Source: Escherichia coli
Lineage (GTDB): Bacteria; Pseudomonadota; Gammaproteobacteria; Enterobacterales; Enterobacteriaceae
DNA: 64,000 nucleotides
Direction: 5' to 3' (one strand)
Assembly (NCBI RefSeq): GCF_013315695.1
Contig: NZ_CP054353.1
The position numbers are program-made. Of the stretch, positions 51,001 through 54,000 are shown piece after piece. Position 1 is the stretch's first letter. Each line of letters starts with the position of its first letter.

Positions 51001-54000
51001 AAGTGAAAGAGCCGTCACGAATCAATTTCGACACTGAGGTTATAACCTGGTTTTCTGTATATGTCATGTTGATGGAAAATATCAAAATCAGATATTTTTA
51101 TTTCAATACAATGAGTTACAGATGCATCAGATACTGTAATTAGGAAATTTTTATTAAATCGACTGCATTCTTACACGCGTTTTTGGCATAGATTGATAGC
51201 AGGGGATTTTCTTCTTAATTTTATAGGGTGGTTCTATGTTATATATAGATAAGGCAACAATTTTGAAGTTTGATCTGGAGATGCTTAAAAAACATCGCAG
51301 AGCAATCCAGTTTATTGCCGTGCTGCTGTTTATCGTCGGGTTGCTGTGTATCAGTTTTCCGTTCGTCTCTGGCGATATTTTAAGCACAGTAGTGGGTGCA
51401 TTATTAATCTGCTCGGGTATTGCGCTTATTGTCGGGTTATTCAGCAACCGCAGTCATAATTTCTGGCCGGTATTATCCGGTTTCCTCGTCGCAGTCGCCT
51501 ATTTATTGATCGGCTATTTCTTCATCCGCGCACCAGAGCTGGGCATTTTTGCCATTGCGGCATTTATTGCCGGTTTGTTCTGTGTGGCAGGGGTTATTCG
51601 CCTGATGAGTTGGTATCGTCAGCGTTCAATGAAAGGCAGTTGGCTACAGCTCGTTATTGGTGTGCTGGATATCGTCATTGCCTGGATATTCCTTGGTGCT
51701 ACGCCGATGGTGTCGGTAACGCTGGTTTCCACACTGGTGGGAATTGAACTGATATTTAGCGCCGCCAGTCTGTTCAGCTTCGCCAGTTTGTTCGTTAAAA
51801 AGCAATAATTATCCCTATTTCCACCTGGATCATAGTCACATTAAGTGACTATGATCCAGTTAATACTCTCTTAGCTATACAGTGTTTCAGTTCAATTACG
51901 CACTATCATTGAAACAATTGCCTGCTGTTGATTATTTCAACCTACTGAATTTAATCTGATTTTTTTCGTTCCATGGCAAATTAGCCATTTCAAACATTAT
52001 CATGGCTGATATTTTCCGTGGTCAGGTTTAATGTTTTAAAAGTGCTGTGGGAAAGTGAACAAAGAGTTCCGTAAGCGTTGATGCTATAGGCGGTTAAATA
52101 AGTAATCCGGGTTCATTTTTTTGCAGCTGGCGTTGATTACATTGCATAAATATCCGTGTCTCCAGACGCTATATAAAAACCTGAAGACATGAATGAGTTA
52201 TCTACTCAGGTAATTTCAATGCGTTAAAAGAAAGCTGGCAATCCAATTGCCAGCCTAAGTCGAAACAAGGAGACTCGATATTTAAATCGGATTACATTTT
52301 AACTTTAGTAATATTCTTCAGAGATCACAAACTGGTTATTGATAACTTATTCTTGGGCAGTAATCCGCAAACGTTAACCTTTTGTTTACTGGTTACAAAC
52401 TGATAACAACCAGGAATCTTACTTAGGATCAATATATGGAGTGCGTGATGGATAAATCTGAAGTATTGATTAGTGTTAATAGACGTATTAGTTCACGAAG
52501 GGCAAAGTTCTTATAGGCGTTTACTATATTGAACAACGATTCGGACAAGGATGTAAATAATGAAAAGGATGACATGTTCGAAACGATAACGGCTAAGGAG
52601 CAAGTTATGATTTTTCTCATGACGAAAGATTCTTTTCTTTTACAGGGCTTTTGGCAGTTGAAAGATAATCACGAAATGATAAAAATCAATTCCCTGTCAG
52701 AGATCAAAAAAGTAGGCAATAAACCCTTCAAGGTGATCATTGACACCTATCACAACCATATCCTTGATGAAGAAGCGATTAAATTCCTGGAGAAATTAGA
52801 TGCCGAGAGAATTATTGTTTTGGCACCTTATCACATCAGTAAACTAAAAGCTAAAGCGCCTATTTATTTTGTCAGCCGTAAAGAAAGTATCAAAAATCTT
52901 CTTGAGATTACTTATGGTAAACACTTGCCCCATAAGAATTCACAACTATGTTTTTCACATAATCAGTTCAAAATTATGCAACTGATTCTGAAAAACAAAA
53001 ATGAAAGCAATATCACGTCAACGCTCAACATTTCGCAACAAACATTAAAGATTCAGAAATTCAACATTATGTACAAGCTGAAATTAAGACGTATGAGCGA
53101 CATCGTCACCCTGGGTATCACATCTTATTTTTAGTAAGGACATAAGCAACTGAAATTGATGGCTGGCATGACGAGGGATGCAGATGCTGATTTCAATACC
53201 CCCGGTGATTATTGAAGGAGAGACGAAAACGACTTTATTCCCCTGGTATGTGTATCCACCAGTAGAACCCTTCGTTGCCCGAATGCTGGCAGAAACTGTT
53301 GGCAGAACGGCAACATTTTTTTTGTCGTTGACCTCACCATGTCGATCATTGTGCTTGCATCCCATCTTACTGGCTGACAACCCCACTATGCCGCTGGTCT
53401 GTAAATCCCTCATATCTCTCCTCGCGCGCAATTTAAAGAACCGTTATTTCTCAAGAATTTTCAGGGACTAAAATGAACAGAAGAAGAAAACTGTTAATAC
53501 CGTTGTTATTCTGCGGCGCGATGCTCACCGCCTGCGATGACAAATCGGCGGAAAACGCCGCCGCCATGACGCCTGAGGTCGGTGTCGTCACACTCTCCCC
53601 CGGTTCGGTCAATGTGTTGAGCGAATTGCCCGGTAGAACCGTTCCTTATGAAGTTGCCGAGATACGTCCCCAGGTGGGCGGTATTATCATTAAACGCAAC
53701 TTTATCGAAGGCGATAAAGTGAACCAGGGCGATTCGCTGTATCAGATTGATCCTGCGCCTTTACAGGCAGAGCTGAACTCCGCCAAAGGTTCGCTGGCGA
53801 AAGCGCTCTCTACCGCCAGCAATGCCCGCATCACCTTTAACCGCCAGGCATCGTTGCTGAAGACCAACTATGTTAGCCGTCAGGATTACGACACCGCGCG
53901 CACCCAGTTGAATGAAGCAGAAGCCAATGTCACCGTCGCCAAAGCGGCTGTTGAACAGGCGACTATCAACCTGCAATACGCAAATGTCACCTCGCCGATT

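What the first reader, a model, noticed from the sequence alone, without database searches (positions are those of the whole stretch)
51809..52606. Long AT-rich gadE leader region may encode additional small RNAs or peptides
About 800 bp of non-coding DNA separates hdeD and gadE. In K-12 this interval holds several promoters and at least one cis-antisense RNA (arrS) as I recall. Here it has several short open frames and A/T tracts, and given the nearby chu insertion and IS1 activity it is worth checking whether its regulatory RNA content is preserved or altered.
Basis: inference. Interest (0 to 1): 0.3.

Follow-up and report, generated by a model that had tools for sequence, protein, structure and literature searches.

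The report
Known gadE control region, ArrS intact
This 798-base stretch is the well-studied control region in front of the E. coli acid-resistance master gene gadE; its one known regulatory RNA (ArrS) and its promoters are intact in this strain, and I found no good evidence for further hidden RNAs or peptides, so it is ordinary.

Summary
Window 51809-52606 is a 798-bp non-coding, AT-rich gap (35.8% GC against 48.1% for the window) between hdeD and gadE.

It is the published "sensory integration region" of gadE. It aligns without gaps to K-12 MG1655, with 41 substitutions, 28 of them in the first 164 nt. It occurs in 5413 of 5426 complete E. coli genomes.

The cis-antisense sRNA ArrS maps to 52226-52295 (- strand) and is 69/70 identical to K-12. 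The one change turns an A-U pair into G-U at the base of the terminator stem, and the predicted fold is unchanged. The 55 nt that hold its promoter are identical to K-12.

Across Escherichia species the interval is a mosaic. Three near-invariant islands (3-13% divergence) contrast with about 24% at gadE third codon positions and about 50% in the spacers. The islands coincide with the published start sites, the GadW and GadE ChIP-exo sites and ArrS.

Short ORFs are fewer than chance predicts (7 against 11.4±2.3). All but one are broken in K-12 or in sister species. The survivor (52448-52516) overlaps the P1 core promoter and does not evolve like a coding sequence.

The chu island and IS1 copies lie 2.3 kb or more away and have not touched the interval.

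Verdict: already known, with its regulatory RNA content preserved. Interest is low.

The parts
51809..52606 (.). hdeD-gadE intergenic region (798 bp), the gadE 'sensory integration region'
   Evidence: Gapless alignment to K-12 3657568-3658365 with 41 substitutions. Found in 5413/5426 complete E. coli genomes. Described as the 798-bp PgadE region in PMC3708157.
51825..51859 (+). hdeD 3'-end hairpin: 15-bp perfect stem, 5-nt loop, no U-run
   Evidence: MFE -25.7 kcal/mol, z = -8.2. The stem is kept across Escherichia with compensatory changes (GGATC/GATCC versus GCCTC/GAGGC; 4 pairs changed on both sides, 90.8% of cells paired against 23-48% when slid) while the loop and flanks diverge about 50%. 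A K-12 Term-seq + strand 3' end at 3657621 maps to window 51862, 3 nt past the stem.
51953..51988 (.). GadW ChIP-exo site 1 upstream of P3 (mapped from K-12); includes YdeO-box hexamer ATTTCA at 51987-51992
   Evidence: Seo 2015 Suppl. Table 2: 3655735-3655770 in U00096.2, centred -70.5 from the TSS; converted by +1977 and the gapless alignment. ATTTCA positions; YdeO box defined in PMC4222967. The 3' end of the site falls in the invariant island 51974-52050.
52006..52041 (+). P3 core promoter and T3 start site (-566 = 52041); candidate CTGATA-N17-TAATGT
   Evidence: TSS position from PMC3708157, independently consistent with the ChIP-exo 'distance to TSS' values. Sequence context. The hexamer assignment is my inference. 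The block 51974-52050 diverges only 6.5-7.8% in E. albertii, E. whittamii and related lineages.
52037..52061 (.). GadW ChIP-exo site 2, overlapping the T3 start
   Evidence: Seo 2015 Suppl. Table 2: 3655819-3655843 in U00096.2, +8 from the TSS.
52130..52225 (.). Unconstrained spacer within the T3 leader, largely deleted in E. albertii, E. whittamii, E69 and E1V33; contains the 23-aa ORF 52121-52192
   Evidence: 77-92% of columns differ or are gapped in the four divergent lineages. The ORF is absent there.
52226..52295 (-). ArrS cis-antisense and trans-acting sRNA (70 nt)
   Evidence: Corresponds to K-12 arrS b4704, 3657985-3658054 (-). It is 69/70 identical; the only change is at 52255. The fold is the same as K-12, -19.9 against -20.2 kcal/mol. 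This exact allele is in 1299 genomes and all 5411 matches are at least 95% identical. Divergence across the genus is 1.4-5.7%. A strong K-12 Term-seq 3' end lies at 3657984/5.
52232..52256 (-). ArrS intrinsic terminator hairpin (11 pairs, 3-nt loop) followed by UUUCUUUU; palindromic, so it also forms in the + strand T3 leader
   Evidence: Terminator scan and fold. A weak K-12 + strand 3' end at 3658019 maps to window 52260, 4 nt past the hairpin.
52302..52308 (-). Candidate ArrS -10 element C-TAAAGT (-13C, sigma-S-like)
   Evidence: Sequence read; the assignment is my inference. 52296-52350 has 0 differences from K-12. Sigma-S and GadE dependence of ArrS is stated in PMC6755755.
52283..52290 (+). 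T2 5' ends (-324/-317), inside the ArrS-complementary stretch
   Evidence: Positions from PMC3708157; context.
52411..52445 (.). GadE ChIP-exo site (autoactivation of P1), mapped from K-12
   Evidence: Seo 2015 Suppl. Table 1: 3656193-3656227 in U00096.2, centred -55 from the TSS. 52400-52482 has 0 differences from K-12.
52448..52516 (+). Only ORF intact in all Escherichia lineages (22 codons, MDKSEVLISVNRRISSRRAKFL; 26 codons from ATG 52436); probably not a gene; overlaps the P1 core promoter and T1 start
   Evidence: Intact in 8/8 sequences. Changes are about 7 nonsynonymous to 1 synonymous, and the central 13 codons are nucleotide-invariant. The GGAG before the ATG becomes GGAC or GGAA in E69 and E. 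albertii. Not among the acid-stress Ribo-seq sORF candidates.
52483..52606 (+). T1 start (-124 = 52483) and 124-nt T1 leader with four GGA motifs (52543, 52549, 52567, 52597) and SD AAGGAG at 52595-52600
   Evidence: TSS from PMC3708157 and consistent with ChIP-exo. Divergence across the genus is 3-7%. GGA motifs. Direct CsrA binding to gadE mRNA is reported in PMC11210196. No significant fold: z = -0.76.
52574..52576 (+). In-frame ATG 11 codons upstream of the annotated gadE start (ATA in K-12)
   Evidence: The ATG allele is in 3907 genomes and the K-12 ATA allele in 1503.

Best explanation
The interval is this strain's copy of the known gadE upstream control region of the acid fitness island, functionally equivalent to the K-12 copy. 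Steps mapped onto this sequence or taken from published K-12 work:

- Several nested promoters drive gadE-mdtEF: P3 (start 52041), P2 (52283/52290), P1 (52483), and a doubtful start at 52586.
- These promoters are served by sites for GadW/GadX, YdeO/EvgA and GadE itself.
- The minus strand encodes the 70-nt sRNA ArrS (52226-52295). It is fully complementary to the long P3-derived leader.
- In K-12, ArrS is induced by sigma-S and GadE. It acts in cis on gadE mRNA in an RNase III-dependent way, and in trans with Hfq on targets such as cfa.
- The hairpin at 51825-51859 marks the 3' end of the hdeD mRNA.

Inferred: because all of these elements are sequence-preserved, they should work here as they do in K-12. 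The short ORFs are chance frames in AT-rich regulatory DNA, not genes. The interval holds no further conserved sRNA.
For: Identity and position:
- Synteny is hdeA/B, hdeD, interval, gadE, mdtEF, and the alignment to K-12 is gapless over 798 bp.

ArrS:
- 69/70 identical, with one A-U to G-U change and an unchanged fold.
- The terminator is detected and the upstream 55 nt are identical to K-12.
- The allele is common: 1299 exact matches among 5411 genomes.

Selection mapped by comparison across Escherichia:
- Three islands (51974-52050, 52226-52350, 52400-52606) diverge by at most 13% in most lineages. The ArrS promoter block reaches 20-24% in E. whittamii and E1V33.
- By contrast, gadE third codon positions diverge 23-25% and the spacers 45-90%.
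- The islands coincide with published TSSs (PMC3708157), GadW and GadE ChIP-exo footprints (PMC4918353), a YdeO-box hexamer and arrS.

Transcript ends in K-12 Term-seq:
- hdeD hairpin, ArrS 3' end (very strong), and a weak + strand end at the ArrS hairpin (PMC7815308 supplement).

Against extra genes:
- ORF count is below chance.
- ORFs are broken in relatives.
- Rfam matches nothing in the interval.
- The acid Ribo-seq candidate tables hold nothing between 3657600 and 3658399.

ArrS function comes from PMC6755755, PMC5145812 and PMC6212723.
Against: - No transcript or ribosome data exist for this strain. All expression evidence is transferred from K-12.
- One ORF (52448-52516) is intact in all eight lineages and has a good GGAG-N6-ATG in E. 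coli, so a regulatory uORF is not excluded.
- A weak + strand 3' end opposite ArrS in K-12 shows that a leader fragment of about 220 nt exists at some level.
- The 13 substitutions outside the divergent first 164 nt include one at -21 of P3 (52020) and five at 52379-52399. I did not test their quantitative effects.
- The primary papers that define P1-P3 (Sayed & Foster 2009) and ArrS (Aiso 2011, 2014) could not be read. Their content is taken from citing papers.
Confidence: 0.9

Rival explanations
1. The long gadE leaders (T2 and T3) carry a translated regulatory uORF (52448-52516, 22 codons; or 26 codons from ATG 52436). Its translation would modulate gadE expression, for example by unwinding a predicted pairing between its last codons (52506-52520) and the gadE Shine-Dalgarno region (52589-52603).
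For: - The ORF is intact, with the same length, start and stop, in all 8 Escherichia lineages.
- E. coli has GGAG followed by 6 nt and then ATG.
- The MFE and centroid folds of the T1 leader pair 52506-52520 with the SD region, and the SD nucleotides have 0.64-0.99 pairing probability.
Against: - The substitution pattern is about 7 nonsynonymous to 1 synonymous event. The central 13 codons are invariant even at synonymous sites, as expected for the P1 core promoter that occupies the same bases.
- The SD is weakened in E69 and E. albertii.
- With so few substitutions, the ORF staying intact is expected by chance (inference).
- The anti-SD duplex (-13.9 kcal/mol) is matched by 12.5% of shuffles, and the leader fold has z = -0.76.
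- The ORF is not in the 18 acid-induced sORF candidates or the known-sORF table of the K-12 acid Ribo-seq study.
- The T1 start at 52483 lies inside the ORF, so the major GadE-dependent transcript lacks its start codon.
Confidence: 0.07
2. The + strand produces an additional stable small RNA. This would be the 5' part of the P3 leader (about 52041-52260, about 220 nt), ending at the palindromic ArrS hairpin, with a function of its own such as titrating ArrS.
For: K-12 Term-seq lists a + strand 3' end at 3658019 (window 52260), 4 nt past the hairpin and antisense to arrS. The P3 start and the hairpin are both conserved.
Against: - The signal is weak: 1432, against 982,952 for the ArrS 3' end in the same table.
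- There is no U-run after the hairpin on the + strand. The end is therefore more simply a degradation or RNase III by-product of the ArrS:T3 duplex, trimmed back to a stable hairpin (RNase III link; the trimming is inference).
- The body of this RNA (52051-52225) is the least conserved part of the interval and is largely deleted in four Escherichia lineages.
Confidence: 0.05
3. The interval has been remodelled in this strain by the nearby chu island insertion or by IS1 activity, altering gadE control.
For: The chu cluster sits between dctR and yhiD, and IS1 copies lie at about 37.1-38.9 kb of the window. Rare strains do carry rearrangements here: in strain 3059 a Tn3 remnant truncates the interval at position 232 and deletes gadE through gadA.
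Against: - The interval has exactly the K-12 length, with no indel and no foreign sequence.
- It is 100% identical to strain MS 21-1, and 777 genomes are at least 99% identical.
- The chu boundary is about 2.3 kb away, beyond yhiD-hdeBA-hdeD.
Confidence: 0.01

Closest known systems
E. coli K-12 hdeD-gadE intergenic 'sensory integration region' (PgadE; Ma 2004, Sayed & Foster 2009, Deng 2013)
   Same: Same flanking genes and same 798-bp length. 94.9% identity without gaps. All published start-site contexts and the ChIP-exo footprints of GadW and GadE are retained.
   Different: 41 substitutions. 28 lie in the unconstrained first 164 nt. The others include 52020 (-21 of P3), 52255 (ArrS stem base), 52503 and 52576 (which restores an upstream in-frame ATG that K-12 lacks).
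ArrS sRNA (arrS, b4704)
   Same: Same position and strand, 69/70 nt identical, same predicted fold and terminator, identical promoter-proximal 55 nt.
   Different: One A-to-G change in the RNA turns an A-U pair into G-U at the base of the terminator stem. This is a common natural allele, found in about 24% of complete genomes.
GadY / gadX-gadW cis-antisense system in the same island
   Same: It is an sRNA encoded opposite an acid-resistance regulator transcript, it also acts in trans with Hfq (PMC5145812), and it is present in this window at 59103-59216.
   Different: GadY overlaps the gadX 3' UTR and gadX-gadW intergenic region, not a 5' leader, and it has an Rfam family. No Rfam family matched ArrS.
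Regulatory upstream ORFs of E. coli such as mdtU (upstream of mdtJI)
   Same: A short ORF with an SD lying in a long leader upstream of a regulated gene (for mdtU).
   Different: mdtU has Ribo-seq support and a demonstrated role. The ORF at 52448-52516 has neither, overlaps a promoter, and lacks a coding-type substitution pattern.

Membership tests
gadE sensory integration region (hdeD-gadE IGR of the acid fitness island) | Lies between hdeD and gadE in the island, in the order slp-dctR ... hdeBA-hdeD-gadE-mdtEF-gadWX | tested here: met
   ORFs and annotation of the identical strain MS 21-1 and of K-12.
gadE sensory integration region (hdeD-gadE IGR of the acid fitness island) | About 798 bp, collinear with the K-12 sequence | tested here: met
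   798 bp, gapless, 94.9% identical.
gadE sensory integration region (hdeD-gadE IGR of the acid fitness island) | Sequence at published start sites (-566, -324/-317, -124) and at the GadW and GadE footprints is retained | tested here: met
   Mapped positions fall in blocks with 0-1.4% difference from K-12, near-invariant across the genus.
gadE sensory integration region (hdeD-gadE IGR of the acid fitness island) | These promoters are actually used and regulated by EvgA/YdeO, GadX/W, GadE, RpoS and H-NS in this strain | not testable with these tools
   Needs 5' RACE or dRNA-seq and reporter assays.
ArrS sRNA | Encoded on the strand opposite gadE, complementary to the T3 leader only | tested here: met
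   52226-52295 (-) lies downstream of T3 start 52041 and overlaps the T2 starts 52283/52290 by only 6-13 nt.
ArrS sRNA | Sequence homology to K-12 arrS | tested here: met
   69/70 identical.
ArrS sRNA | Rho-independent terminator (GC-rich hairpin plus U-run), as needed for an Hfq-binding sRNA | tested here: met
   11-pair stem plus UUUCUUUU. The K-12 3' end maps here.
ArrS sRNA | Own promoter, sigma-S and GadE dependent | tested here: inconclusive
   The upstream 55 nt are identical to K-12 and contain C-TAAAGT at -13 to -7. Activity was not measured.
ArrS sRNA | Match to a curated RNA family model | tested here: not met
   No Rfam 15 family matched the locus at E <= 1. I take this to mean that no curated ArrS model exists, rather than that the locus fails one.
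Translated small ORF / leader peptide | ORF conserved (start, stop and frame) in relatives | tested here: not met
   Six of seven ORFs, and the TTG extension of gadE, carry stops or frameshifts in K-12 or in other Escherichia. Only 52436/52448-52516 is intact.
Translated small ORF / leader peptide | Coding-type substitution pattern (excess of synonymous changes, 3-nt periodicity) | tested here: not met
   For 52448-52516: about 7 nonsynonymous to 1 synonymous event, with a centre invariant at all codon positions.
Translated small ORF / leader peptide | Ribosome footprints or initiation peak | tested here: inconclusive
   Absent from the acid-stress Ribo-seq candidate and known-sORF tables for K-12, but those tables were filtered. 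Start-site profiling tables were truncated or not held.
Intrinsic terminator (for the hdeD hairpin 51825-51859) | Stable GC-containing hairpin | tested here: met
   -25.7 kcal/mol, z = -8.2, with compensatory changes.
Intrinsic terminator (for the hdeD hairpin 51825-51859) | U-run immediately 3' of the stem | tested here: not met
   The stem is followed by UUAAUACUCUC. I therefore call it a 3'-end hairpin, meaning a terminator or a protective stem-loop, and not a canonical intrinsic terminator.
Intrinsic terminator (for the hdeD hairpin 51825-51859) | RNA 3' end mapped at the hairpin | tested here: met
   K-12 Term-seq + strand end at 3657621, 3 nt past the stem. This is K-12 data, not data from this strain.

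The most novel reading that the evidence does not exclude
The only genus-wide intact ORF (52448-52516, present only on the long P2/P3 leaders) is a translated regulatory uORF. Its termination region overlaps a segment (52506-52520) that can pair with the gadE Shine-Dalgarno sequence. Under this reading, translation of the uORF would make long-leader transcripts more translatable than the short T1 transcript. A second, smaller possibility: in the 72% of E. coli genomes (and all sister species sampled) that carry ATG at 52574, GadE is also made with an 11-residue N-terminal extension that K-12 cannot make.
Probability: 0.06. Interest if true: 0.4.

Novelty: already known. Interest (0 to 1): 0.08.

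Why it matters
GadE is the master switch of glutamate-dependent acid resistance, which lets E. coli, including chu-positive pathogenic lineages like this one, survive the stomach. It also drives the MdtEF efflux pump. This strain's gadE control region and ArrS are essentially the K-12 versions, so the large K-12 literature on gadE regulation can be applied to it. Nothing new needs explaining here. The by-products are minor: a map of which parts of the 798 bp are under selection across the genus, compensatory support for the hdeD 3' hairpin, and the polymorphic upstream ATG.

Tried and rejected
- **Rfam.** An E-value-mode scan of 49000-55000 found nothing in the interval. The only hits were ES205/GadF downstream of gadE and a chance mir-761 hit.
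- **Consensus scans.** Promoter-like sites were at chance level (4 against 3.3). One - strand promoter-like site (52025 to 51996) was not pursued for that reason.
- **Start-site Ribo-seq tables.** The Stringer 2021 supplement is stored truncated, sorted by coordinate, and does not reach 3.65 Mb, so it is uninformative. No supplement is held for Weaver 2019.
- **Primary papers not held.** Sayed & Foster 2009, Aiso 2011 and Thomason 2015. TSS and ArrS facts are therefore taken from citing papers.
- **'Cryptic Bacterial Microproteome' paper.** No mention of gadE or hdeD.
- **uORF literature search.** Nothing relevant.
- **Seo 2015 coordinates.** A first search with U00096.3 coordinates found nothing. 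U00096.2 coordinates worked.
- **Anti-SD helix in the T1 leader.** Predicted but not significant: 12.5% of shuffles do as well, and the fold has z = -0.76.
- **GAD-box consensus search.** The best matches were only 11-12 of 20, so I used the ChIP-exo footprint instead.
- **First fold of the E. albertii hairpin.** I gave the wrong coordinates (fifth sequence). This was redone from the alignment.
- **Direct offset comparison of the window with MS 21-1.** It failed upstream of 38.9 kb because the IS1 region differs; resolved by BLAST.
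Full report
**What is at the coordinates**

hdeD occupies 51236-51808 (+). gadE starts at ATG 52607 (+). The gap between them, 51809-52606, is 798 bp. The neighbourhood is the E. coli acid fitness island, in the order yhiD-hdeB-hdeA, hdeD, gadE, mdtE, mdtF. The window is 99.9% identical over 38860-64000 to strain MS 21-1, whose RefSeq annotation names these genes. The interval has 35.8% GC, against 48.1% for the window.

The short open frames are not remarkable. Seven ORFs of at least 20 aa lie inside the interval. Dinucleotide-preserving shuffles give 11.4 ± 2.3.

**Comparison with K-12**

The interval aligns to NC_000913.3 3657568-3658365 without a single gap. There are 41 substitutions, giving 94.9% identity. 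Twenty-eight of them lie in the first 164 nt after the hdeD stop, and 13 lie in the remaining 634 nt.

The K-12 record annotates one feature inside the interval: the ncRNA arrS at 3657985-3658054 (-). It also annotates gadF after gadE. By the gapless alignment, arrS is window 52226-52295 (-).

- It differs from K-12 at one base, 52255. This changes an A-U pair to G-U at the base of the terminator stem.
- Predicted structures are identical, at -19.9 against -20.2 kcal/mol.
- The terminator is the only terminator-like site found in the interval.
- The 55 nt upstream of the ArrS 5' end (52296-52350) are identical to K-12. They contain C-TAAAGT at -13 to -7. This looks like a sigma-S-type -10 element; that assignment is my inference.
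- The window's ArrS allele is found exactly in 1299 complete genomes. All 5411 matches are at least 95% identical.
- The whole interval occurs in 5413 of 5426 complete E. coli genomes.

**What the literature says about the interval**

- Deng et al. 2013 (PMC3708157) describe the 798-bp hdeD-gadE region as the gadE-mdtEF promoter or "sensory integration region". They list transcript 5' ends at -21, -124 (T1), -324/-317 (T2) and -566 (T3). More than ten regulators act on it. It is 96-99% identical among pathogenic E. coli and Shigella. In window coordinates these starts are 52586, 52483, 52283/52290 and 52041.
- Seo et al. 2015 ChIP-exo (PMC4918353) places GadE at 3656193-3656227 and GadW at 3655735-3655770 and 3655819-3655843, in U00096.2 numbering. 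Adding 1977 and applying the alignment gives window 52411-52445, 51953-51988 and 52037-52061. Their "distance to TSS" values reproduce -124 and -566 exactly, which cross-checks the mapping.
- YdeO binds the gadE p2p3 region and recognises ATTTCA repeats (PMC4222967). The hexamer occurs at 51934, 51987 and 52213.
- ArrS is complementary to the leader of the longest gadE transcript and is induced by acid through sigma-S and GadE (PMC6755755). It also acts in trans on cfa. The ArrS/gadE pair is linked to RNase III (PMC6212723).
- CsrA binds gadE mRNA directly (PMC11210196). The T1 leader has four GGA motifs.

**Selection across the genus**

A scan of species-representative genomes with GadE returned E. 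coli, two cryptic-clade Escherichia, strain E69, E. whittamii and E. albertii. gadE third codon positions differ from the window by 23-25% in the four divergent lineages. The interval is a mosaic:

| Segment | Feature | Divergence in the four divergent lineages |
|---|---|---|
| 51809-51973 | post-hdeD segment | 46-54% |
| 51974-52050 | P3 block | 6.5-7.8% |
| 52130-52225 | spacer | 77-92%, mostly deleted |
| 52226-52295 | ArrS | 2.9-5.7% |
| 52296-52350 | ArrS promoter, T2 start | 9-24% |
| 52400-52482 | GadE site to P1 | 8-13% |
| 52483-52606 | T1 leader | 3-7% |

The constrained blocks are the ones occupied by the published promoters, footprints and ArrS. No constrained block is left without a known occupant.

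**Are there extra peptides?**

I extracted each ORF from the genus alignment.

- Broken by stops or frameshifts in K-12 itself or in the other species: 51882-51959 (+), 51932-52003 (-), 52121-52192 (+), 52325-52432 (-), 52511-52603 (-), 52429-52620 (-), and the TTG-initiated in-frame extension of gadE from 52529.
- Intact in all eight: only 52436/52448-52516 (+), M(ECV)MDKSEVLISVNRRISSRRAKFL.

In E. coli this ORF has GGAG, six nucleotides, then ATG. Several points argue against it being a gene:

- Its changes are about seven nonsynonymous to one synonymous.
- Its central 13 codons are invariant at every codon position.
- The GGAG is GGAC or GGAA in E69 and E. albertii.
- The same bases hold the P1 core promoter and the T1 start (52483).

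The simplest reading is that nucleotide-level constraint on the promoter keeps a chance frame open.

An acid-stress Ribo-seq study of K-12 reported 18 acid-induced sORF candidates. Two are in the gadW 3' UTR. Its held tables of candidates and known sORFs contain no entry between 3657600 and 3658399 (PMC10746267). This negative is weak because the lists were filtered.

A predicted pairing of 52506-52520 with the gadE SD region would give such a uORF a plausible mechanism. However, 12.5% of shuffles match it and the leader fold has z = -0.76.

**Are there extra RNAs?**

Rfam finds nothing in the interval. K-12 Term-seq (PMC7815308 supplement) lists three 3' ends inside it.

- 3657621 (+) maps to window 51862.
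- 3657984/5 (-) is the ArrS end, with signal up to 982,952.
- 3658019 (+) maps to window 52260, with signal 1,432.

The first end lies 3 nt past a perfect 15-bp hairpin at 51825-51859 (-25.7 kcal/mol, z = -8.2). The stem is kept across the genus through compensatory changes, GGATC/GATCC against GCCTC/GAGGC, while its loop and flanks diverge. These changes probably reflect few independent events. There is no U-run after the stem. I interpret it as the hdeD mRNA 3'-end hairpin.

The weak + strand end lies 4 nt past the palindromic ArrS terminator hairpin. It most simply marks the upstream remnant of the P3 leader, after ArrS-directed processing or exonuclease trimming (inference). The body of that RNA is the least conserved part of the interval.

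**Effect of chu and IS1**

The chu cluster is inserted between dctR and yhiD, about 2.3 kb upstream of the interval. IS1 copies lie at about 37.1-38.9 kb of the window. The interval has no indel relative to K-12, so neither has affected it.

Rearrangements in the interval are rare. 5406 of 5426 genomes carry at least 80% of it in one piece. One example is strain 3059, where a Tn3 remnant cuts the interval at position 232 and removes gadE through most of gadA.

**Verdict**

This is the known gadE control region with ArrS preserved. Its suggestion of additional small RNAs or peptides is not supported, though a regulatory uORF at 52448-52516 cannot be formally excluded without translation data. 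Novelty: already known. Interest: low.

Noticed in passing
window 52574-52576: An in-frame ATG lies 11 codons upstream of the annotated gadE start. It is preceded by AAGGA and would add MFETITAKEQV. K-12 has ATA here. The ATG allele is in 3907 complete E. coli genomes and in all other Escherichia species sampled; the K-12 ATA allele is in 1503 genomes.
   Followed up: partly
window 51825-51859: A perfect 15-bp hairpin follows the hdeD stop. It shows compensatory changes across Escherichia and has a K-12 Term-seq 3' end 3 nt downstream, but no U-run. It is likely the hdeD mRNA 3'-end structure.
   Followed up: yes
window 52260 (+ strand): K-12 Term-seq lists a weak + strand 3' end (3658019) just past the palindromic ArrS terminator hairpin. 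This implies a fragment of about 220 nt from the P3 leader.
   Followed up: partly
window 53252-53323 (+): A full-length Rfam ES205 match (106.5 bits) lies in the gadE 3' UTR. It corresponds to the K-12 gadF sRNA annotation.
   Followed up: partly
window 53084-53431 (-): A 115-aa ORF antisense to the gadE 3' end and GadF is annotated as a 'hypothetical protein' (WP_016234986.1) in the RefSeq record of the identical strain MS 21-1. It is probably a spurious call.
   Followed up: no
window 37096-37866 and 38128-38895: Two IS1 copies lie upstream of slp where strain MS 21-1 has one. This is the only large difference between the window and that genome over 32-64 kb.
   Followed up: partly
window 59103-59216 (+), 43549-43580 (-), 32696-32779 and 32930-33012 (+), 24655-24697 (+): Other Rfam gathering-level matches in the window: GadY, the shuA/chuA 5' UTR thermoregulator, two AgrB copies next to dinQ, and ES036 (CssrF).
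   Followed up: no
L009 (Flavobacterium paronense CECT 8460 contig) and L010 (Streptomyces sp. DH24 contig): Both contigs carry E. coli hdeD-gadE sequence. L009 is K-12-like with homopolymer indels. This is almost certainly assembly contamination in the public records.
   Followed up: partly
L011 6001-7400 (E. coli strain 3059, NZ_CP103559.1): A Tn3-family transposase remnant truncates the hdeD-gadE interval at position 232, close to the P3 start. It replaces gadE, mdtEF, gadW, gadX and most of gadA, so this blood isolate naturally lacks gadE.
   Followed up: partly
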